Source: Enterobacter phage EspM4VN
Reading direction: 5' to 3' (one strand)
Sequence record: LC373201.2
DNA length: 64,000 nucleotides
The notes beneath the pieces are model-generated. The model worked only from the letters and a program-made list of their open reading frames with translations. It made no database searches and was not told the DNA's origin. Of the stretch, positions 14,992 through 47,168 are shown in pieces. The stretch's first letter is position 1, and every line of letters starts with the position of its first letter. The translations under genes and the position numbers were made by a program.

Positions 14992-15035
14992 ACCTGATTT
15001 GAAACTGTAACCCATTCATCATTGAGGATAGTAAA

Positions 15036-15407
15036 ATGTTTGATAAAGCAACCCGTCTGAAACTGCGCTTCGAGTCTAACAAAGGTCTGCTGTCTGTTGA
15101 GCAGGTTTGGGACCTGAGCCTGACCGCTCTGAACGAAATGGCGAAAAGCCTGAGCCGTCAGGTGAAGGCAGCGGAAACCGATGAAGAAGATTTCATCGGC
15201 ACCAAAAGCAACGTTGACTCCGAACTGCAGCTGCGCTTCGACGTTGTCAAGCACATCATCGGCGTTAAGCTGAAAGAGCGTGACGACAGCAAAGACGCGG
15301 CAGAGCGTAAGGCGAACAACCAGGTTATCCTGGAACTGATCCAGCGTAAGAAACAGCAGGAGCTGGAAGGCAAATCTGTTGAAGAACTGGAAGCGCTGCT
15401 GAAATAA
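15036..15407 (+). CDS. hypothetical charged coiled-coil protein (123 aa)
   Basis: ORF with RBS GAGGA; followed by terminator. Confidence 0.5.
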   Translation: MFDKATRLKLRFESNKGLLSVEQVWDLSLTALNEMAKSLSRQVKAAETDEEDFIGTKSNVDSELQLRFDVVKHIIGVKLKERDDSKDAAERKANNQVILELIQRKKQQELEGKSVEELEALLK

Positions 15408-15428
15408 CCTGTCGGCCTCGGCCTGAGC

Positions 15429-15457
15429 AACCCCGCCATGTGCGGGGTTTCTTTTGG
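15429..15457 (+). terminator. rho-independent terminator
   Basis: CCCCGC-CATGT-GCGGGG then TTTCTTTTGG. Confidence 0.6.
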
Positions 15458-15466
15458 ACAAAGAAT

Positions 15467-15868
15467 ATGAAACCTGTCATCTGTGATTACTGCGGCCTCC
15501 CAGCCGAATTCGTCGGTGGTGATGTTCTCTACCCTCATCGCCCTGACCTTCGCAATCTGAAGTTCTGGGTTTGTACCCCATGTGACGCTCGTGTCGGTTG
15601 TCATACCCATGGCGACGGTAGACAGCCTCTGGGAAGGATGGCGAATGCCGCTCTCCGTGCCGAGAAGCAAAATGCCCATAGATCGTTTGACCCACTGTGG
15701 AAAAGCGGAGAAAGGAGCAGGAGCGACGCTTACAGTTGGCTGGCGCATAAGCTGGGGATCAAGAAGCGCGATTGCCATATCGGCTTGTTCGATATCGACA
15801 TGTGCCGTAAAGTAGTTGCTGTATGCAACCAATTACGGGAAACACAGAATGGCAACCATCAATCGTAA
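15467..15868 (+). CDS. zinc-finger protein, DUF3268-like
   Basis: MKPVICDYCGLPAEFVGGDVLYPHRPDL..FWVCTPCDARVGCH resembles the enterobacterial prophage DUF3268 family. Confidence 0.5.
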   Translation: MKPVICDYCGLPAEFVGGDVLYPHRPDLRNLKFWVCTPCDARVGCHTHGDGRQPLGRMANAALRAEKQNAHRSFDPLWKSGERSRSDAYSWLAHKLGIKKRDCHIGLFDIDMCRKVVAVCNQLRETQNGNHQS

Positions 15869-16643
15869 TGAACCCAAAGGTGTTGAGCTGAAGGGTAAAT
15901 CTGTTCGCGAAGGTCTGAAGCTGTCTCCAGACCTCCTGAAGTCACACATCGCCGAAGTCATCTATGAAGACCGTGAAGTCGGCGGCCACCGCGTCATCAC
16001 CTGCCACTTCAAGATGGACAACGGATTTATCGTCTGGGGCAAGAATAGCTCTACTTCCATCGACCCTGCCAACTTTGATGAAGAGTTGGGCAAGAAGCTG
16101 GCCTATGACAAGACCTTCTCCCAGTTGTGGGAACTGGAAGCCTACCGCGCCGTCGTAGAGAAGCAGATGTTGGAGGTGGCTACCGCCGATGCGAAGATAG
16201 ACATTTTCCAGTACATCTCCGAAAGGGGGAAGATAAATCAGATGGCTGGCATGGAATTCTTGAAAGGTCATGGCCAGTCTTTCTTGTTCCACCACTCACG
16301 AGATCCGAGTCGAGGGTTCGTTGCTGATTTTGTTCAAACAGACAATGAACGATACAACGACCAACACAACAGTAAAGCCCAAGCTGGGGTGGAAGCATAT
16401 CTGCGTTCGCACATGCTACCAGATGAACTGTATTCTGAACTCGTTGTTCGTCTGGCCAAGACTTGCGCGGCGGCTTACAAGGGTGGGATCTACTTTAATG
16501 CCACCACTTGGGATAAGATGAGCGCTGAAGAACAGAAAGACTGCTGTGAAGACATCAGGCGGCTCTTGCTGGCTCCGGTGGATTATATCCCAACCGACCA
16601 GAAGGACGCGCTGTTCAAGGCCATCGTAGACTCCTACAAATAA
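15849..16643 (+). CDS. Phage_gp49_66-family protein (N4 gp49-like N-terminal domain)
   Basis: HRVITCHFKMDNGFIVWGKNSSTSIDPANFDEELGKKLAYDKTFSQLWELEAYRA fits the family signature; start ATG 15849 overlaps the upstream gene. Confidence 0.5.
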   Translation: MATINRNEPKGVELKGKSVREGLKLSPDLLKSHIAEVIYEDREVGGHRVITCHFKMDNGFIVWGKNSSTSIDPANFDEELGKKLAYDKTFSQLWELEAYRAVVEKQMLEVATADAKIDIFQYISERGKINQMAGMEFLKGHGQSFLFHHSRDPSRGFVADFVQTDNERYNDQHNSKAQAGVEAYLRSHMLPDELYSELVVRLAKTCAAAYKGGIYFNATTWDKMSAEEQKDCCEDIRRLLLAPVDYIPTDQKDALFKAIVDSYK

Positions 16644-16674
16644 CTGAATTATCAAACTCCTTCAATAACAATGA

Positions 16675-16705
16675 CGCCCAGTATATTTGCTGGGCGTTTC
16701 AATTT
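16675..16705 (+). terminator. rho-independent terminator
   Basis: CGCCCAG-TATATTTG-CTGGGCG then TTTCAATTTG. Confidence 0.55.
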
Positions 16706-16753
16706 GTGCATCACAGTATAATACGGCTGTACAATACACCATGAGGCTACATT

Positions 16754-17608
16754 ATGTTTCGTTTGAAATTGAACGACCAAGATGTGTTCTACAAACACTT
16801 CACCTTCCCAGGTGGTGAGGAACACGTCAAGATCCAAAAGGCTGGCATCCCTGTCGGAAGAGTAAGAACCGTGGAAATCGAAGCCCATATCAAAACGTCG
16901 GCAGGCTTCATTGAACTGGCGCTATTAATGGACGCCTTGCGTGGTCTGGGTAACGTGGATCGCATGACGGAATATCACGTCACTATCCCTTACTTCCCAT
17001 ATGCCCGCCAGGATCGCCGTTGCGACTTTGGTGAGCCTCTGTCGGTGAAGTGGGCGGCTGAGTTCATCAATAGTATGAACTTTGACAATGTGTGGATCAA
17101 AGACCCTCACAGCAATGTCGTTACTTCTCTGATCAACAACGTCCATGTGGTCCCGCAAGATTACATCGTGCGTCAGTATCTGGGCTGGTTCATCCGTGGG
17201 AACAACGCTGTGTTGGTAGCCCCTGACGGCGGCGCGGCGAAGAAGACCGAAACCCTCAGCCTGTCATTGGATGGCGTTCCTGTTGTCTACGGGCACAAGA
17301 ATCGTGACACCAAGACTGGTGAGATCATTGGGGTGAGCATTACAAACCCTGAACTGATCAAAGACCGCTATCTGGTAGTGGTCGATGATATCTGTGACGG
17401 TGGGCGCACGTTTGTTGAGCTGGGCAAAGAGCTTCAGAAGCACAAGCCTAAGCACATGACGCTCTTCGTCACCCATGGCATCTTCAGCAAAGGTCTCTCT
17501 GTTTTCGACGGGATCTACGATGCTGTGTATGCCGACACTGTCTGGTGGGAGAACATCACCGCCGACGGTCTTCCTTTCAAAACTGAAAATACAGGACGTG
17601 TAAAATGA
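16754..17608 (+). CDS. ribose-phosphate pyrophosphokinase homologue (Prs/Adps-like)
   Basis: PRPP-binding loop VVVDDICDGGRTF; 284 aa; stop overlaps start of next gene (ATGA). Confidence 0.8.
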   Translation: MFRLKLNDQDVFYKHFTFPGGEEHVKIQKAGIPVGRVRTVEIEAHIKTSAGFIELALLMDALRGLGNVDRMTEYHVTIPYFPYARQDRRCDFGEPLSVKWAAEFINSMNFDNVWIKDPHSNVVTSLINNVHVVPQDYIVRQYLGWFIRGNNAVLVAPDGGAAKKTETLSLSLDGVPVVYGHKNRDTKTGEIIGVSITNPELIKDRYLVVVDDICDGGRTFVELGKELQKHKPKHMTLFVTHGIFSKGLSVFDGIYDAVYADTVWWENITADGLPFKTENTGRVK

Positions 17609-19269
17609 GCATGCGCCACTTAGATCCAATCCATGCAATCGACTTCTACAAATCAGGTCACATCTATCAATTCCCTGAAGGCAGCGAGCTGGTGTTCTCC
17701 AACGGAACTCCGCGTTCCAACAAACTGTTCAACTCTCACCTGCCGAAGAACGGCGTGGTGGTCTGGGGTATCCAGGGCTTCATGACCTGGTTCCACGAAC
17801 TGTTTGACGAAGCGTTCTTCCAGCGCCCAAAGGCCAAGGTGCTGAAGAAGTATGCCCGTCGCATGAACAAAGTGCTGGGACCAGGCCGCGTCGGCACAGA
17901 GCATATCGAAGCCCTGCACGACCTCGGCTACCTGCCTATCGAAGTCCGTGCTCTGCCTGAAGGCACCATGTGCCCGTATGGCGTTCCGGTGTATGTGATG
18001 TTCAACACCTTGCCGGAGTTCTACTGGCTGACCAACTATCTGGAGACTGTATTCAGCTCTGAGATCTGGAAGCCGATGACGAACGCCACCATCGCCCTGC
18101 ACTACAAAGCGTTGATGGTGAAAGCTGCTATCGCTACAGGCGTGTCGCCGGACCATTGGTTCATCGACTACCAAGGCCATGACTTCTCCTTCCGTGGTAT
18201 GAGCGGGTGGCATGACGCTGCGTCTTCCGGTTCCGGCCACCTGGTGTTCTTCAAAGGCACCGATACCAACCCTGCCCTAGACTTCGTTGAAGAGTACTAT
18301 GGCGCAGACATCGACGAAGACTATGTCGTTGCTGGCTCCGTTGCGGCTACCGAACACGCCGTGATGTGTATGGGCACGAAGGATGGCGAATTCGAAACCT
18401 TCCGCCGCCTGGTGCAGGACGTGTATCCTGATGGCATCGTCAGTATCGTGTCTGACGCGTGGGACTATTGGCAGGTCATCGACGACTATCTGCCTCGCCT
18501 GAAAGACATTATCATGGCACGCAACGGTAAAGTCGTGATCCGCCCTGACTCGGGCGACCCTGTACACATCGTTGGCGGCTACCGCATTGAATCATTCCGC
18601 AATCGTGGGACGCTTCAGTTAAGCAGCGTGTCCAGCAGCACCGAAGTCATTCACATCGAAGAGACGAACACCTATCACCTGATCACAGGCGAAGGCACGA
18701 TCAACTCTCTGATGGCAGATGACCGCAATATCATCAGCCGTTCTGAAGCGGTCGGCTCTATTCAACGCCTGTGGGAGATCTTTGGTGGCACCCAGACCGA
18801 AACTGGCCACTTCCTGTTGGATGAGCACATCGGTCTGATCTACGGTGACTCCATCACCCTGGCACGTGAAGACCAGATCTTTGGCCGTCTGGCTGGCCGG
18901 AACTTCGCTTCCATCAACGTGGTCTTCGGTATCGGTTCCTACACCTACCAGATGAACACCCGTGACAGCACTGGGACGGCGGTGAAAGCCACGGCTGGTA
19001 AAGTGAACGGTGAATTCCGTGAGATCTTCAAAGAGCCGAAGACTGACAAAGGCGGGACTAAAAAGTCTGCGCGTGGTTTCCTTAAAGTCATTAAAGACTC
19101 TCAGGGTAAACTAGTGTTGGTTGACGGTATCACCTTTGATCAGGTACAAGACGCCGACAACCAGCACCAGCTGGTGTACCGTGATGGTAAGTTCTCCAAC
19201 ACTCAGACTCTGGAAGATGCGCGTGTTCGTGCCGCTCCTCTGGTGGCGGAACTGGCCTCACAAATCTGA
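17605..19269 (+). CDS. nicotinamide phosphoribosyltransferase homologue (NAMPT/NadV or Namat-like)
   Basis: 554 aa; N-term MSMRHLDPIHAIDFYKSGHIYQFPEG typical of the NAMPT family. Confidence 0.85.
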   Translation: MSMRHLDPIHAIDFYKSGHIYQFPEGSELVFSNGTPRSNKLFNSHLPKNGVVVWGIQGFMTWFHELFDEAFFQRPKAKVLKKYARRMNKVLGPGRVGTEHIEALHDLGYLPIEVRALPEGTMCPYGVPVYVMFNTLPEFYWLTNYLETVFSSEIWKPMTNATIALHYKALMVKAAIATGVSPDHWFIDYQGHDFSFRGMSGWHDAASSGSGHLVFFKGTDTNPALDFVEEYYGADIDEDYVVAGSVAATEHAVMCMGTKDGEFETFRRLVQDVYPDGIVSIVSDAWDYWQVIDDYLPRLKDIIMARNGKVVIRPDSGDPVHIVGGYRIESFRNRGTLQLSSVSSSTEVIHIEETNTYHLITGEGTINSLMADDRNIISRSEAVGSIQRLWEIFGGTQTETGHFLLDEHIGLIYGDSITLAREDQIFGRLAGRNFASINVVFGIGSYTYQMNTRDSTGTAVKATAGKVNGEFREIFKEPKTDKGGTKKSARGFLKVIKDSQGKLVLVDGITFDQVQDADNQHQLVYRDGKFSNTQTLEDARVRAAPLVAELASQI

Positions 19270-19276
19270 TAACCGA

Positions 19277-19300
19277 AGGGGAGGAAACTCCCCTGTTTTG
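19277..19300 (+). terminator. rho-independent terminator
   Basis: AGGGGAG-GAAA-CTCCCCT then GTTTTG. Confidence 0.6.
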
Positions 19301-19310
19301 AGGTCGAGGA

Positions 19311-19481
19311 ATGTCCAAACCATTCAAAAATGCGGGTGTCGACAACCTCGACCGCCGCTTTACTCCATCGGAAACGCTGATGAGCCAGATTGAACTCAAT
19401 CGCGATTTCCTGGAACATATGCTGGTCAAGCCGGAAGGTGAGGCCGAAGACAACCCTGAAGAAGGCAATAACGATGATTGA
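19311..19481 (+). CDS. small acidic protein (56 aa), not in ORF track
   Basis: ATG 19311 after GAGGTCGAGGA; MSKPFKNAGVDNLDRRF...EGNNDD; stop overlaps next start (ATGATTGA). Confidence 0.35.
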   Translation: MSKPFKNAGVDNLDRRFTPSETLMSQIELNRDFLEHMLVKPEGEAEDNPEEGNNDD

Positions 19482-21705
19482 ATCATTAGAATTTAAGAAT
19501 GCGGTTGCGACTGCTGCTCCGTCCAACCATGTAATCGTTGTGGACATCTCTTATTCGATGTACCGTGCGCTCCCTGAAGTCCGTAAGCATCTGAAGGAGA
19601 ACCTGCCTTCTCTGGTGAAACCGGAAGACACTGTGAGTGTTCTGTACTTCTCATCCCGTGGCGACTTTGGTACTGTGTTCGCTGGCCGTCAGGTTAGTGC
19701 AGCATCTGACCTGAGTGAGCTGAACAAACTGATCGACCGCTTCCTGCAGCCATCTGGCTGTACTGGCTTTGTTGAGCCTTTAAAGCTGGCGTTCGATACT
19801 GCAGACAGCCTGAAGAAGCCTGGCTATGTCAACAACCTGGCGTTCATGACCGATGGTTATGACAACTGCTGGCGTACCAACGAAATCCTGCTGGTCGCCG
19901 AGACCCTGCCTCATGCATTCGACAACATCACGTTCATCGAATACGGCTGGAACTGTAACCGCGAACTGCTGTCGCAGATGGCTGAACGCTCTGGTGCGAC
20001 TCACGTGTTCGCCGAAGGCCAGACTGAATATCAGACTGAGCTGGAAAACGTTCTGAAGTCCTCGGTGCCGAAGGTTCGTGTCGACATCAGCGCCCTATAC
20101 ACGCATGCCATCTACGTTGAAAATGGCGTAGCAACTGTGTTAGCTGCTCAGTCGGACGTGAAAGATTCGGATATCCCTGGGGTGAAGGTCGAAGTAAGCG
20201 CCTACGTTAACGTCCCTGAGAGCGTCACCAAGCTGTGGGTTGTAAACCCTAACATGATCGACCAGATGGATAGCCTGACGGATATCCAGGCGGCATACGT
20301 GCTGGCGTTCTACGGCGTACACACGATGGACGCAGATCTGGTTTGGGCTGCTCTGAAGAAGACTGGTGACGTGCGCTTCATCAAGCGTTACAACAACTGC
20401 TTCACCAAGCAGGACTACTCCAACATCAAGATCGATCTGGTACAGGCTATCGTTGACGACCAGCTGCGCGGCGTTGAAGGCATCGACTACAACCTGGTTC
20501 CGGCTGAAGACGCAACCACCGTCGTTGATGTGCTGACGTACCTGGCCGAAGCTGGTGTGTCTGTTGCAACCAAGCATCCTATGTTCTCCTATCGCAGCAT
20601 TGGTCGCGGTACTGTGCAGAAAGCCGACGACACCGAAGACAAGCTGGCTGAAGAGATCGCGAATGCTCAGTCCAAAGAAGAGCGTAAAGCCCTGGCTCTC
20701 AAGCTGGCAGAGCACGAAGAGTGGACGCCGTCGTTTGAACCTGCGAACGATCTGGGCGTGGTTCCAATCAGCGACCTGGTCTATAACTCCGAGCGCCCGA
20801 ACATCAGTGTGCGTACAATTCAACACGGTACTGTGGCGGTGCCTGAGTTCGCGCAGAAGAAGTTTGGCCTGCCTGAAGAACTGGACACCTTCCAGTGGCG
20901 CAACTACACCATCGTCAAAGATGGCATCATCAACGTGAAGACCCTGCCGTTCAAGGCTGACGCCGAAGTTGCGACTGTTCTTCATCAGATGGGCGTTCAC
21001 GTGTTCGGTGGCCAGAACGACGTGTTCATCCTGAACCTGGAAAGCGTACCGCTGGTCAACCGCGCCATGACCAAGAACATCAGTGCTGCTCAGTTCTTTG
21101 CCGACAACGTCCGCCTGGAAGCCCTGAAAGGCAAACAGAAGGTGCTGAAGTTCTACCGTGACGCCCTGGTTGGTAAGGGTAACGCCAAAGGTCTGGCTAT
21201 TCAGTACGGTGCCGAGGCCGCAGAATACCTGTCTGGCGTTGGCATCCGTGATTACGGCTTCTCACCGAAGACTGAGACCAAGGAGTCTACCGACTTCTAC
21301 ATGAGCCGTGAGCTGAACGTGAAGATCGCTGGCGCTTCTTCCCTGCCGTCTATCGCAGCGGTGCAGAAGAAGATTGCCGACAAGAAGAACCTGAATGCTG
21401 GTGACATGTTCATCGCCAATGCGCTGAAAGAGTACGATGCATTCGTGAAGTCTCCGGCCATTACTGCTGTACCTGAAGCCGTACAGAAACAGCTGATCGA
21501 AAACTGGATCGACGCTGCTGCCAAGGCGGCCATCACCGAAGTCCGCGCCCTGAACAAGACGCTGTCTAAAGTGGTGTACGGTATCGTTGCTGGCCACGGC
21601 TGGTTCACCGACCTCGATCTGGAAGAGTCAACCATGGAAGTTGAAGTGGATGGCGTGAAGTACAAGGTCACTGCCGAACTGGCAGAGAAAGAGATCAAAA
21701 TCTAA
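19474..21705 (+). CDS. von Willebrand factor A (vWA) domain protein (743 aa)
   Basis: N-terminal VIVVDISYSMYRALPEV...DTVSVLYFSS is a MIDAS-type vWA motif; start ATG 19474 (RBS GAAGG). Confidence 0.6.
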   Translation: MIESLEFKNAVATAAPSNHVIVVDISYSMYRALPEVRKHLKENLPSLVKPEDTVSVLYFSSRGDFGTVFAGRQVSAASDLSELNKLIDRFLQPSGCTGFVEPLKLAFDTADSLKKPGYVNNLAFMTDGYDNCWRTNEILLVAETLPHAFDNITFIEYGWNCNRELLSQMAERSGATHVFAEGQTEYQTELENVLKSSVPKVRVDISALYTHAIYVENGVATVLAAQSDVKDSDIPGVKVEVSAYVNVPESVTKLWVVNPNMIDQMDSLTDIQAAYVLAFYGVHTMDADLVWAALKKTGDVRFIKRYNNCFTKQDYSNIKIDLVQAIVDDQLRGVEGIDYNLVPAEDATTVVDVLTYLAEAGVSVATKHPMFSYRSIGRGTVQKADDTEDKLAEEIANAQSKEERKALALKLAEHEEWTPSFEPANDLGVVPISDLVYNSERPNISVRTIQHGTVAVPEFAQKKFGLPEELDTFQWRNYTIVKDGIINVKTLPFKADAEVATVLHQMGVHVFGGQNDVFILNLESVPLVNRAMTKNISAAQFFADNVRLEALKGKQKVLKFYRDALVGKGNAKGLAIQYGAEAAEYLSGVGIRDYGFSPKTETKESTDFYMSRELNVKIAGASSLPSIAAVQKKIADKKNLNAGDMFIANALKEYDAFVKSPAITAVPEAVQKQLIENWIDAAAKAAITEVRALNKTLSKVVYGIVAGHGWFTDLDLEESTMEVEVDGVKYKVTAELAEKEIKI

Positions 21706-21747: not shown

Positions 21748-22074
21748 ATGAGCAGTAAACCAACATATGTTGAAGTCATGCGTCATCTGGCTCAGTACGC
21801 CACTGACAATCTGAATCTGGAAGTCAGTGATGAGGACAAGAGTAGCATCAAAGGAATCGTCGACGCCGAAGTGGTAATCAACGATGCCCTGGACAAGCTG
21901 GCTGGCCTCCGCACCAAGAAAGACCTCGGTGGTGATGAACTCGATGCTATCGAAATCGTAATGGACCTCGAAGAAGAGTTTCAGGTAGAAATCGACGATG
22001 GTTGGCTGGGTAGTAAAGGCGATGACCCTACCATGGGCGAACTCGCTGAACTCGTGGTTGCCCTGCGCAAATAA
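21748..22074 (+). CDS. acyl-carrier-protein-like protein with Ser to Glu at the attachment site
   Basis: LGGDELDAIEIVMDLEEEFQVEIDD aligns to the ACP motif [26 protein letters not shown] but has DELD instead of DSLD. Confidence 0.5.
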   Translation: MSSKPTYVEVMRHLAQYATDNLNLEVSDEDKSSIKGIVDAEVVINDALDKLAGLRTKKDLGGDELDAIEIVMDLEEEFQVEIDDGWLGSKGDDPTMGELAELVVALRK

Positions 22075-46325: not shown

Positions 46326-47168
46326 ATGCAATCTGCCACCAAAGTTGTAAGTATGAAGCCAGCGGGCAAGACCAAGTCAGCACGTAAGAAGGAGACAATC
46401 CAGAAAGAAGATGACTGGATGAAGTTCTCCAAAGGTGACTTCAGAATCGCTCCGTTCAATGGCCTCTCAGAGAATCAGAACCTCGCTTATCAATCTGCTC
46501 TTGAAGAAAACCTCACCATCGCGATCGGTCCGGCGGGTACAGGTAAATCGTACTGTGGTGCCTCAGCCGCCGCCAAGCTCCTGATCGATAAAGTTGTCAG
46601 CAAGATTGTCATCACGCGCTCTCCGCTGCCAACAGGCCAGACAGCAGGCTTCCGTCCTGGTGACACGTACGAAAAGCTCATGCCATACCTGATGCCCCTG
46701 ATTCAGACGTTGAAGAAGGTACTGAAGACCGACACGGGCAATGATGGTTTCTTCAACTACCTGTGGGAGAAGCGGATCATCGAGATCCAGGATCTGGAGA
46801 CCATCAAGGGGATGACCTTTGAAGACACCTTCCTGATCATTGAAGAAGCCCAGGAATGCGATATGGAGCAGCTGAAGAACCTGCTGACTCGCAACGCAGA
46901 TTCAACCTACGTCTTTGTAAACGGTGACATCAAGCAGTCCAACAATCGCCTGCGCGACAATGCCCTTGAGAGATACGTCCATGCTTTCCGTGACTTCAAT
47001 GCCAAACTCGAAGCCGGAACTCTGGTGATCGACGATGTTGGCGTCGGTGATGAATATCCTGAATGGGTTCAACCGTTCAGTATCATCGAATTCAACAAGA
47101 CCGACCGCAACGGACGCGGGGACTTCACCCGCCGTATGCTGGAAGTTAACGATCTGTACGACATTTAA
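46326..47168 (+). CDS. phoH: PhoH-like ATPase
   Basis: Walker A GPAGTGKSY and the PhoH-family pattern; ATG 46326 after AGGAAGG. Confidence 0.8.
   Translation: MQSATKVVSMKPAGKTKSARKKETIQKEDDWMKFSKGDFRIAPFNGLSENQNLAYQSALEENLTIAIGPAGTGKSYCGASAAAKLLIDKVVSKIVITRSPLPTGQTAGFRPGDTYEKLMPYLMPLIQTLKKVLKTDTGNDGFFNYLWEKRIIEIQDLETIKGMTFEDTFLIIEEAQECDMEQLKNLLTRNADSTYVFVNGDIKQSNNRLRDNALERYVHAFRDFNAKLEAGTLVIDDVGVGDEYPEWVQPFSIIEFNKTDRNGRGDFTRRMLEVNDLYDI

What the first reader, a model, noticed from the sequence alone, without database searches (positions are those of the whole stretch)
16754..19269. Prs-like plus NAMPT-like gene pair with overlapping stop/start: candidate NARP1 NAD+ reconstitution module
A PRPP-synthetase homologue (PRPP-binding loop VVVDDICDGGRTF) is translationally coupled (ATGA overlap at 17605-17608) to a 554-aa NAMPT homologue. 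Established knowledge: phages carry either NadV+NMNAT (NARP2) or an Adps (Prs homologue, makes ADPR-pyrophosphate) plus Namat (Nampt homologue) pair (NARP1). These rebuild NAD+ and defeat NAD+-depleting defences (Thoeris, DSR, SIR2-HerA, SEFIR). No NMNAT is recognisable in this window, which favours the NARP1-type reading. A terminator (19277-19300) closes the unit.
Basis: partly seen in the sequence, partly recalled or inferred. Interest (0 to 1): 0.65.

Follow-up and report, generated by a model that had tools for sequence, protein, structure and literature searches.

The report
Known phage NARP1 NAD+ rebuilding operon

Summary
A 284-aa Prs-like ORF (16754-17608) overlaps a 554-aa Nampt-like ORF (17605-19269) by ATGA, and conserved hairpins bracket the pair.

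The NARP1 interpretation is supported.
- Both proteins group with the experimentally validated Adps and Namat of phages ICP1, Bas63 and SPbetaL1, not with canonical Prs or Nampt/NadV (bootstrap 88% and 100%).
- Adps keeps the catalytic Lys, the acceptor-site residues and the remodelled DDICDGGRTF PP-loop, and lacks the PRPS regulatory C-terminus.
- Namat keeps the catalytic Arg and His and 10 of 11 positions of the Namat selectivity-helix signature. Its model superposes best on the Namat crystal structure (TM 0.95).
- No NMNAT was found in the window or in the closest complete genome held.

It is not new. Both proteins are identical to Enterobacter phage EspM4VN proteins, which Osterman et al. 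2024 list in Supplementary Tables 1 and 2 as a Namat-adjacent Prs/Adps homologue and an "Adps-associated" Namat. A 2024 Ackermannviridae review makes the same link.

One side finding: the gene immediately upstream is an orthologue of a published RyR-domain (RyDEP-family) protein, but a ~39-aa deletion has removed its ligand-binding core.

Activity has not been tested in this lineage. Interest is low.

The parts
15849..16643 (+). Upstream neighbour, included as context and not shown to be part of the pathway. It is a 264-aa protein with an N4 gp49/Sf6 gp66 domain and a core-deleted RyR (RyDEP-family) remnant.
   Evidence: Pfam PF13876 only, and no RyR hit even at E<=10. It is 39% identical over its full length (E 2e-63) to P0176, which is nearly identical to RyDEP homologue H6 of bioRxiv 10.64898/2026.05.28.727677. 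A ~39-aa gap removes the equivalents of RyDEP H75, W78 and H100; the D117 equivalent is kept. The order RyR-protein, adps, namat is seen in L018 and L019.
16673..16698 (+). Stem-loop between the upstream gene and adps, followed by UUUCAAUUU. Probably the terminator of the upstream gene.
   Evidence: -19.2 kcal/mol, z -4.9, 0 of 200 shuffles fold as well. The scan lists it on the minus strand. The single difference from P46FS4 changes a G-C pair to G-U.
16717..16722 (+). TATAAT, a -10-like hexamer with no recognisable -35. Promoter function is inferred, not shown.
   Evidence: Read from the sequence. The sigma-70 scan found no full promoter in 15000-19800. The whole 16640-16760 stretch is 120/121 identical to P46FS4, while flanking coding DNA is about 93-97% identical.
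16744..16747 (+). GAGG ribosome-binding site 6 nt upstream of the adps ATG.
   Evidence: Read from the sequence.
16754..17608 (+). adps: ADP-ribose pyrophosphokinase (Prs homologue), 284 aa.
   Evidence: 100-137 bits to the validated ICP1, Bas63 and SPbetaL1 Adps against 72-76 bits to E. coli and human Prs. Falls in the Adps clade with 88% bootstrap. Scores below the cut-off of every NCBIfam Prs model. K182, R85, H119, D158, D211, D212, D215 and the DDICDGGRTF loop are conserved. Identical to EspM4VN YP_009877053.1.
17605..17608 (+). ATGA stop/start overlap between adps and namat (translational coupling is inferred).
   Evidence: The same overlap occurs in P46FS4 (46832-46835) and L018 (6929-6932).
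17605..19269 (+). namat: nicotinamide ADP-ribose transferase (Nampt homologue), 554 aa.
   Evidence: 453 bits to SPbetaL1 Namat (9W5W/9W5X), 356 to H. ducreyi NadV and about 173 to mammalian NAMPT. Falls in the Namat clade with 100% bootstrap. R313, H251 and the SCH motif GSYTYQMNTRD are present. The model has pLDDT 93 and its best fold match is 9W5X with TM 0.95. Identical to EspM4VN YP_009877054.1.
18580..18753 (+). Insertion in Namat (residues ~326-383) relative to the SPbetaL1 and ICP1 Namat. It is modelled as a small beta/alpha subdomain.
   Evidence: Alignment; Bas63 Namat has a longer insertion at the same site. The model is confident there, with strands 328-331, 348-351 and 356-359 and helices 366-371 and 379-383. 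Seven of the ten amino-acid differences from P46FS4 lie at residues 330-341.
19277..19299 (+). Stem-loop AGGGGAG-GAAA-CUCCCCU followed by GUUUU. Probable terminator closing the unit.
   Evidence: Not listed by the consensus scan.

Best explanation
The two genes are a NARP1 (NAD+ reconstitution pathway 1) operon.

When a host defence such as SIR2-HerA, DSR1/2, type I Thoeris or SEFIR cleaves NAD+ into ADP-ribose and nicotinamide, Adps (16754-17608) transfers the beta,gamma-pyrophosphate of ATP to the terminal ribose of ADP-ribose and makes ADPR-pyrophosphate. Namat (17605-19269) then replaces that pyrophosphate with nicotinamide and regenerates NAD+ directly, with no NMN intermediate and no NMNAT.

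The genes are probably transcribed as one bicistronic unit between two hairpins and translated in a coupled way through the ATGA overlap.

What is shown here: the gene anatomy, clade membership, conservation of catalytic and specificity residues, the fold, and the absence of an NMNAT. What is inferred: the two enzyme activities and the anti-defence phenotype. These rest on experiments with the Bas63, SPbetaL1, FADO and ICP1 homologues (33-43% identical), not on this lineage.
For: Clade membership:
- Adps scores 100-137 bits against three validated Adps and 72-76 bits against Prs. Namat scores 369-419 bits against three validated Namat and 139-155 bits against KVP40-genus and human Nampt.
- Trees support Adps versus Prs at 88% bootstrap and Namat versus Nampt at 100%.
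- tblastn identities to phage homologues are bimodal: 37-47% to NARP1-type and 24-29% to T4-like Nampt.
- Adps fails every curated NCBIfam Prs cut-off.

Adps residues (numbering from PMC13586617):
- K182 aligns with ICP1 K185 and SPbetaL1 K162.
- R85, H119, D158, D211, D212, D215 and F18 are conserved.
- The PP-loop DDICDGGRTF is identical to that of Bas63.
- The canonical PRPS N-terminal segment and the alpha11-alpha12 C-terminus are absent.

Namat residues (signature from PMC12774641):
- R313 aligns with R306, and H251 is present.
- SCH is GSYTYQMNTRD, against GAQTYQRNTRD in the true Nampt HdNadV and GGGLLQ(K/Q)L in other Nampt.
- SCL residue 3 is Lys40, as in Bas63 and ICP1.

Fold: best match 9W5X Namat with TM 0.95 and rmsd about 2.0 A.

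No NMNAT in the window or in P46FS4.

Prior classification: the identical EspM4VN proteins are listed as a Prs/Adps homologue with Namat within 10 genes, and as an 'Adps-associated' Namat.
Against: - No biochemical or genetic test exists for any Ackermannviridae NARP1.
- Two adenine-stacking positions of the published Namat clamp are not aromatic here. SCH position 7 is Met450, where all three validated Namat have Tyr. The residue after SCL Lys40 is Leu41, where Bas63 has Trp and ICP1 has Tyr.
- ICP1 Adps Phe92, an adenine contact, aligns with Cys90. This position is also not conserved in Bas63 (Met) or SPbetaL1 (gap).
- Only 64 kb of this genome is held. Absence of an NMNAT elsewhere rests on a 91%-identical relative and on the label in the published table.
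- My trees are neighbour-joining with only two canonical Prs sequences.
Confidence: 0.9

Rival explanations
1. Classical salvage, as the GenBank and RefSeq names say. The first enzyme is a true ribose-phosphate pyrophosphokinase making PRPP. The second is a true Nampt/NadV making NMN. A host enzyme (NadR or NadD, or PncC plus NadD/NadE) finishes NAD+, giving a NARP2-like route that borrows the host NMNAT.
For: The Pfam and PHROG names are Prs and Nampt. The Namat-like protein passes NCBIfam NF006629. SPbetaL1 Namat keeps about half of human Nampt's NMN-forming activity in vitro (PMC12774641). The closest true Nampt, HdNadV, is 36% identical with TM 0.91. Met450 and Leu41 weaken the adenine clamp signature.
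Against: - Both proteins fall inside the validated NARP1 clades.
- Adps is below every Prs model cut-off and has the Adps-type PP-loop.
- SPbetaL1 Adps gave no product in the Prs assay of the discovery paper.
- Bas63 overcame SIR2-HerA in a pncC nadR deletion host.
- At SCH positions 2 and 3 and SCL position 3 the window protein is Namat-like (S, Y, K), whereas HdNadV has A, Q, E.
- 97% of Adps-clade genes sit next to a Namat, whereas bacterial prs genes rarely do.
Confidence: 0.05
2. A NARP1 variant with altered or relaxed donor specificity. The pair still rebuilds NAD+. However, the Ackermannviridae Namat, with Leu41/Phe42 and Met450 in the clamp plus a 58-aa inserted subdomain, would use ADPR-PP and PRPP (or another ADPR derivative) with a different preference from the SPbetaL1 enzyme.
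For: Clamp deviations are seen. Met at SCH position 7 is fixed in the Ackermannviridae cluster and rare elsewhere, in about 5 of 113 other homologues. The insertion is confidently folded and is the most variable part of the protein between close relatives. Clamp double mutants lose ADPR-PP activity but keep NMN synthesis.
Against: The most important clamp residue by mutagenesis, the F392 equivalent, is aromatic here (Tyr446). Mutations in a single clamp element cost only 1.3-1.7-fold. The paper states that the X positions are 'most often' aromatic, not always. Phe42 could take the stacking role. Bas63 Namat, validated in vivo, has an even larger insertion at the same site.
Confidence: 0.08
3. 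A general metabolic booster and not a counter-defence. The pair would raise NAD+ for phage replication in any host, whether or not a defence system is present.
For: The genes sit among DNA replication and nucleotide-metabolism genes in the relative P46FS4: clamp loader, MazG and helicases. NARP2 raises NAD+ even without a defence system.
Against: In Bas63 infection, ADPR-PP appeared only when the NADase defence was present. The pathway needs free ADP-ribose, which is the product of NADase defence. NARP1 did not help against the non-NADase type II Thoeris.
Confidence: 0.04

Closest known systems
NARP1 of Escherichia phage Bas63 (genes 79-80), Bacillus phages SPbetaL1 and FADO, and Vibrio phage ICP1 (Osterman et al. 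2024; PMC12774641; PMC13586617)
   Same: Gene order is adps then namat. Clade membership is the same for both proteins. The catalytic Lys, Arg and His are conserved. The Adps PP-loop DDICDGGRTF is identical to Bas63. The Namat selectivity-helix signature is present. No NMNAT is found. Like Bas63, the Namat has an insertion after the RPDSGDP motif.
   Different: Identity to the validated enzymes is only 33-35% for Adps and 42-43% for Namat. The ATGA overlap is absent from Bas63 (45-nt gap) and ICP1 (33-nt gap). Met450 replaces Tyr at SCH position 7, and Leu41 replaces Trp or Tyr after the SCL lysine. No experiment exists for this lineage.
NARP2 of Vibrio phage KVP40 (NadV/Nampt plus the bifunctional Nmnat NatV)
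   Same: The purpose is the same, restoring NAD+ under NADase defence. One enzyme belongs to the Nampt superfamily.
   Different: The window protein is only 29% identical to a KVP40-genus Nampt and lies across a 100%-bootstrap split from it. The partner is a Prs homologue, not an Nmnat. No NatV, NadD or NadR homologue was detected. The chemistry runs through ADPR-PP, not PRPP and NMN.
Extended NARP1 operons: NARP1-AP (Macro-domain phosphatase Adpp, Vibrio phage Gary) and RyDEP-NARP1 (RyR-domain cADPR glycosidase, mycobacteriophage DyoEdafos)
   Same: An accessory gene of the RyR-domain family sits directly next to adps-namat in Ackermannviridae. The intact form is homologue H6 of the RyDEP preprint.
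   Different: In this window the RyR domain has lost the segment carrying the H75, W78 and H100 equivalents and no longer matches Pfam PF02026. No Macro-domain protein lies within two genes. The phage is therefore predicted to have plain NARP1 and to remain sensitive to aRES, which produces ADPR-1''-phosphate.
Canonical ribose-phosphate pyrophosphokinase (E. coli Prs, human PRPS1) and nicotinamide phosphoribosyltransferase (human NAMPT, H. ducreyi NadV)
   Same: Same folds. The catalytic lysine and the ribose-binding aspartates of PRPS are conserved, and so is the nicotinamide-ribose coupling core of Nampt.
   Different: Adps lacks the PRPS N-terminal strand-helix and the regulatory C-terminal alpha11-alpha12. 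It has a remodelled PP-loop and a KTGEI hairpin. Namat carries the aromatic selectivity helix that Nampt and NadV lack.

Membership tests
NARP1 / Adps | Prs-like two-domain phosphoribosyltransferase fold | tested here: met
   Pfam Pribosyltran plus Pribosyltran_N. PDB hits are all PRPS chains.
NARP1 / Adps | Groups with validated Adps and apart from canonical Prs | tested here: met
   100-137 bits against 72-76 bits. NJ split at 88% bootstrap. Below the cut-off of all 11 NCBIfam Prs models, the best being 104 bits against a cut-off of 113. The tree holds only two canonical Prs.
NARP1 / Adps | Catalytic lysine on the beta-hairpin (ICP1 K185, SPbetaL1 K162) | tested here: met
   K182 aligns with both.
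NARP1 / Adps | Acceptor-site residues R87, H121, D161, D212, D213 and D216 (ICP1 numbering) | tested here: met
   R85, H119, D158, D211, D212 and D215.
NARP1 / Adps | Remodelled PP-loop conserved among Adps homologues (DDICDG...F) | tested here: met
   DDICDGGRTF is identical to Bas63, against DDM(I/A)DT(G/C)GT(L/I) in Prs.
NARP1 / Adps | Aromatic contacts to the ADPR adenine (ICP1 F18 and F92) | tested here: inconclusive
   F18 is conserved. F92 aligns with C90, but this position is Met in Bas63 and a gap in SPbetaL1, so it does not define the family.
NARP1 / Adps | Loss of the PRPS C-terminal alpha11-alpha12 regulatory and filament module | tested here: met
   The alignment ends before the ...ILAEAIRR...SVS segment of Prs.
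NARP1 / Adps | Namat gene within ten genes | tested here: met
   Adjacent, with a 4-nt overlap.
NARP1 / Adps | Converts ADPR plus ATP to ADPR-PP and does not make PRPP | not testable with these tools
   Needs purified protein and LC-MS.
NARP1 / Namat | Nampt-like fold, closest to the Namat crystal structure | tested here: met
   PF04095. Model pLDDT 93. Foldseek top hits are 9W5X and 9W5W with TM 0.95, ahead of HdNadV at 0.91 and NAMPT at 0.90.
NARP1 / Namat | Groups with Adps-associated Namat and not with Nmnat-associated Nampt | tested here: met
   100% bootstrap. 369-419 bits against 139-155 bits.
NARP1 / Namat | Catalytic core: Arg (SPbetaL1 R306) and the catalytic His | tested here: met
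   R313. H251 lies in the ATEH motif and is invariant in 77 homologues.
NARP1 / Namat | Selectivity-clamp helix GS-X-phi-X-phi-X-phi-TRD with aromatic X at position 3 | tested here: met
   GSYTYQMNTRD with Tyr446. HdNadV has GAQTYQRNTRD.
NARP1 / Namat | Aromatic X at position 7 of the selectivity-clamp helix | tested here: not met
   Met450. Among 133 homologues the counts are Y 92, M 25 (20 of them in the Ackermannviridae cluster), F 8, H 7 and C 1. The paper says 'most often' aromatic, so this is a minority state and not an exclusion.
NARP1 / Namat | Selectivity-clamp loop: third residue Arg, Lys or Tyr, with a stacking residue | tested here: inconclusive
   Lys40 is present, as in Bas63 and ICP1. 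The next residue is Leu41, not aromatic, followed by Phe42. Which residue stacks on the adenine cannot be told without a ligand complex.
NARP1 / Namat | Prefers ADPR-PP over PRPP and makes NAD+ directly | not testable with these tools
   Needs an enzyme assay.
NARP2 | Nmnat (NatV-like) gene in the same genome | tested here: not met
   Best tblastn E 0.2 in the window and in P46FS4, and jackhmmer found nothing, while controls were positive. None of the 212 annotated P46FS4 features is an Nmnat. The remaining ~97 kb of this phage's own genome was not available.
NARP1-AP | Macro-domain phosphatase (PF14519, PF01661 or PF20016) within two genes of NARP1 | tested here: not met
   hmmscan of the flanking ORFs gave DUF3268, Phage_gp49_66 and VWA, or no hit. 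The original study used the more sensitive HHpred.
RyDEP / R12-domain family (upstream gene) | Pfam PF02026 match and ligand-binding residues H75, W78, H100 and D117 | tested here: not met
   No PF02026 hit. The H75, W78 and H100 equivalents lie in a ~39-aa deleted segment, and only the D117 equivalent remains. Homology to the intact family member H6 is clear at 39% identity, E 2e-63.
NARP3 | NadR-like bifunctional enzyme plus PnuC-like transporter | tested here: not met
   E. coli NadR finds nothing in the window or in P46FS4. PnuC was not searched.

The most novel reading that the evidence does not exclude
In Ackermannviridae, NARP1 may be the surviving part of a three-gene counter-defence island. 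The island would consist of a gp49/66-RyR fusion protein that binds or cleaves Thoeris cADPR signals, followed by Adps and Namat.

In the EspM4VN lineage, and in most sequenced relatives, the RyR ligand-binding core has been excised. The Adps N-domain has been swapped by recombination. The Namat carries a rebuilt adenine clamp (Leu41/Phe42/Met450) and a variable inserted subdomain.

If these changes alter function, for example a different donor preference or a new role for the truncated RyR protein, this lineage would be a distinct NARP1 variant shaped by an ongoing arms race.
Probability: 0.12. Interest if true: 0.4.

Novelty: already known. Interest (0 to 1): 0.12.

Why it matters
It matters mainly for annotation and for phage use.

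RefSeq and GenBank name these two genes "ribose-phosphate pyrophosphokinase" and "nicotinamide phosphoribosyltransferase". Those names describe reactions that the validated homologues do not perform or do not prefer.

EspM4VN is a proposed biocontrol phage against plant soft-rot Enterobacter. Carrying NARP1 predicts that it resists SIR2-, TIR- and SEFIR-type NAD+-depleting defences. It has no Macro phosphatase and no intact RyR domain, so it is predicted to stay sensitive to aRES and not to neutralise cADPR signals by the RyDEP mechanism.

None of this opens a new question. The pathway, its structures and its distribution, including this phage, are published.

Tried and rejected
- Sigma-70 promoter scan of 15000-19800 found nothing. 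A search for recurrence of the CACAGTATAATAC element in the window found only the site itself and one 2-mismatch hit, no more than chance. The promoter and the timing class therefore remain undetermined.
- My first suspicion was that the upstream ORF is a functional RyR protein. Pfam did not support this. It was then refined to a core-deleted orthologue.
- NARP1-AP (Macro phosphatase), NARP2 (Nmnat) and NARP3 (NadR-like) were considered and not found.
- A Biopython bootstrap run timed out and was replaced by a numpy NJ bootstrap.
- A literature search for PDB codes 9KE8 and 9KEO returned only irrelevant papers. The entry title from the fold search identified it as H. ducreyi NadV.
- The solved Adps structures are not in the PDB copies available, so no fold-level Adps test was possible.
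Full report
**Observation.** The window holds a 284-aa ORF at 16754-17608 and a 554-aa ORF at 17605-19269, both on the + strand. The first ends ...GTA AAA TGA and the second starts at the ATG formed by the last A of AAA plus TG, so the two share ATGA at 17605-17608. The first protein matches Pfam Pribosyltran and Pribosyltran_N, and the second matches NAPRTase.

**Transcription-unit anatomy.** A strong stem-loop at 16673-16698 (-19.2 kcal/mol, z -4.9) lies between the upstream gene and adps. A weaker one at 19277-19294 (-15 kcal/mol, z -2.1, followed by GUUUU) lies just after namat. The consensus scan did not list the downstream hairpin and found no sigma-70 promoter. The 121 bases around the adps start are 120/121 identical to Salmonella phage P46FS4, although flanking coding DNA is about 93-97% identical, and the one change keeps the stem paired. 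The downstream stem is conserved in P46FS4, and a more distant relative has an unrelated, stronger hairpin with a T-run at the same place. I read the pair as a bicistronic unit bounded by terminators. It has a conserved upstream region containing TATAAT (16717-16722) and a GAGG ribosome-binding site. The promoter type is not determined.

**Source.** Nucleotide searches place the window in Ackermannviridae, genus-level Agtrevirus, at about 91% identity to P46FS4, SKML-39, Ag3 and MK-13. Both proteins are identical, residue for residue, to YP_009877053.1 and YP_009877054.1 of Enterobacter phage EspM4VN. That record is absent from the phage collection I could search by DNA.

**Is the Prs-like protein an Adps?**
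- It scores 137, 128 and 100 bits against the Adps of ICP1, Bas63 and SPbetaL1, which are validated biochemically or genetically. It scores 72-76 bits against E. coli Prs and human PRPS1, which score 300 bits against each other.
- It falls below the curated cut-off of every NCBIfam Prs model.
- In a neighbour-joining tree of 18 sequences, the split between the two canonical Prs and all the Namat-adjacent phage Prs/Adps homologues, the window protein among them, has 88% bootstrap support.
- Using the ICP1 structure paper as the rule book, the window protein keeps the catalytic lysine (K182), the acceptor-site residues R85, H119, D158, D211, D212 and D215, and the adenine contact F18. Its PP-loop DDICDGGRTF is identical to that of Bas63.
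- It lacks the PRPS N-terminal strand-helix and the regulatory C-terminal alpha11-alpha12.
- ICP1 F92 aligns with Cys90, but this position is not conserved among the validated enzymes either.

**Is the Nampt-like protein a Namat?**
- Against PDB sequences it scores 453 bits to the SPbetaL1 Namat crystal structures 9W5W and 9W5X. The Namat structure paper confirms the identity of these entries. It scores 356 bits to H. ducreyi NadV and about 173 bits to mammalian NAMPT.
- It is 42-43% identical to three validated Namat and 27-29% identical to a KVP40-genus Nampt and human NAMPT.
- The Namat/Nampt split has 100% bootstrap support.
- tblastn identities across 2045 phage records are bimodal in the same way.
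- An AlphaFold model built on 77 homologues (pLDDT 93, pTM 0.92) superposes best on 9W5X, with TM 0.95 and rmsd about 2.0 A.
- The catalytic Arg (R313) and His (H251) are present.
- The published Namat signature GS-X-phi-X-phi-X-phi-TRD reads GSYTYQMNTRD here. The closest true Nampt, HdNadV, reads GAQTYQRNTRD, and other Nampt read GGGLLQ(K/Q)L.

**Two deviations from the Namat signature.** Position 7 is Met450, not an aromatic residue. The residue after the clamp-loop lysine is Leu41 (followed by Phe42), where Bas63 has Trp and ICP1 has Tyr. Met at position 7 is fixed in the Ackermannviridae cluster and occurs in about 5 of 113 other homologues. Mutations in a single clamp element cost only 1.3-1.7-fold in the SPbetaL1 enzyme. 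I therefore treat this as a minority state of the family and not a failed membership test. It does leave room for a somewhat different donor preference.

**The Namat insertion.** The protein has a 58-residue insertion (about 326-383) after the RPDSGDP motif, relative to SPbetaL1 and ICP1. Bas63 Namat, validated in vivo, has a longer insertion at the same site. Homologue lengths range from 484 to 581 aa. The insertion is modelled confidently as a small beta/alpha subdomain.

**NMNAT and other pathway variants.** I retrieved KVP40 NatV through a primer sequence in the discovery paper's supplement. NatV, E. coli NadD and E. coli NadR find nothing better than E 0.2 in the window or in the complete P46FS4 genome, while the positive controls work. 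None of the 212 annotated P46FS4 features is an Nmnat. No Macro-domain protein flanks the pair, so this is not the NARP1-AP form. No NadR-like NARP3 enzyme was found.

**Prior knowledge.**
- Supplementary Table 1 of Osterman et al. 2024 lists LC373201_00156 (EspM4VN) with the identical sequence and "Namat within 10 genes: Yes". Table 2 lists LC373201_00157 as "Adps-associated".
- Other Ackermannviridae appear in the same tables: SenASZ3, SKML-39, 0507-KN2-1 and Ag3.
- A 2024 review of the family already suggests that its NAMPT and RPPK genes help evade NAD+-depleting defence.
- The EspM4VN genome paper does not discuss the genes.

The finding is therefore already known, although no Ackermannviridae NARP1 has been tested experimentally.

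**Side finding: the upstream gene.** The ORF just upstream (15849-16643, 264 aa from its ATG) has an N4 gp49/Sf6 gp66 domain and an unassigned C-terminal half. Six of the 36 homologue clusters carry Pfam RyR (PF02026) in that half, scoring 41-43 bits against a cut-off of 27.4. One of them is nearly identical to homologue H6 of the RyDEP preprint. [quoted passage not shown]

The window protein is 39% identical to the intact form over its full length (E 2e-63). It has a ~39-residue gap that removes the equivalents of RyDEP H75, W78 and H100 and keeps only the D117 equivalent. The order RyR-protein, adps, namat is conserved in a 156-kb metagenomic phage contig. Only 39 of 263 member sequences carry the intact core. 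Between the window and P46FS4, the N-terminal half shows 12 synonymous to 4 non-synonymous codon differences and the C-terminal half shows 9 to 12. This fits relaxed constraint on the remnant, but the numbers are small. I predict that this protein cannot act on cADPR by the RyDEP mechanism. Its actual role is unknown.

**Side finding: mosaicism.** Adps is only 90-93% identical to any record in the phage collection, whereas Namat reaches 99.3%. Against P46FS4, nucleotide identity falls to 69-79% over about 16800-17000, between flanks of 95-100%. Twenty-four of the 27 amino-acid differences lie in Adps codons 25-124. This is the pattern of a recombination patch from an unsampled relative.

**Verdict.** The locus is a plain two-gene NARP1 operon that is already catalogued, so interest is low.

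Noticed in passing
window 15849-16643 (+): The gene directly upstream of adps is an orthologue of the published RyDEP-family homologue H6 (an N4 gp49/Sf6 gp66 domain plus a RyR R12 domain). A ~39-aa deletion removes the equivalents of the ligand-binding residues H75, W78 and H100, and the protein no longer matches Pfam PF02026. Intact and deleted forms coexist in Ackermannviridae: 6 of 36 clusters are intact.
   Followed up: yes
window ~16800-17000 (Adps codons ~25-124): Nucleotide identity to P46FS4 drops sharply to 69-79% between flanks of 95-100%. The patch holds 24 of the 27 amino-acid differences in Adps. No record in the phage collection has an Adps more than 93% identical, while Namat reaches 99.3%. 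It looks like a recombination patch in the Adps N-domain.
   Followed up: partly
window 18580-18753 (Namat residues ~326-383): A 58-aa insertion relative to SPbetaL1 and ICP1 Namat, confidently modelled as a small beta/alpha subdomain. Seven of the ten Namat differences from P46FS4 lie at residues 330-341. Bas63 Namat has a longer insertion at the same site. Its function is unknown.
   Followed up: partly
window 16640-16760: The intergenic region upstream of adps is 120/121 identical to P46FS4, more conserved than the flanking genes. It holds a hairpin and a perfect TATAAT but no recognisable -35 box, so the promoter class is undetermined.
   Followed up: partly
Shigella phage Ag3 (FJ373894; P0038), not in the window: Ag3 carries a single 547-aa ORF that fuses Adps residues 1-222 to Namat residues ~226-554, an internal deletion. 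This chimera explains why PHROG phrog_12872 matches both window proteins. The fused protein lacks part of both enzymes and is probably inactive.
   Followed up: no
window 15440-15868 (+) versus L005 44704-45072 (-): A DUF3268 zinc-finger ORF (Pfam E 6e-37) lies on the + strand two genes upstream of adps. At the corresponding place, the P46FS4 RefSeq annotation calls a 122-aa gene on the opposite strand, which may be a strand mis-call in that record. In the L018 relative, a 90-aa gene occupies this position.
   Followed up: no
window 19390-21705 (+) and 21748-22074 (+): Downstream of the pair lie a conserved large protein of about 740-771 aa with a weak vWA domain (PF13768) and a phage acyl carrier protein (PP-binding; phrog_4154). 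Neither has a known link to NAD+ metabolism.
   Followed up: no
P0069, P0116, P0124 (bacterial chromosomes), not in the window: Namat-like proteins about 50% identical to the window protein occur on megabase contigs of Chitinophaga, Fibrella and Paludisphaera. This is consistent with the bacterial NARP1 homologues already reported in PMC12774641.
   Followed up: no
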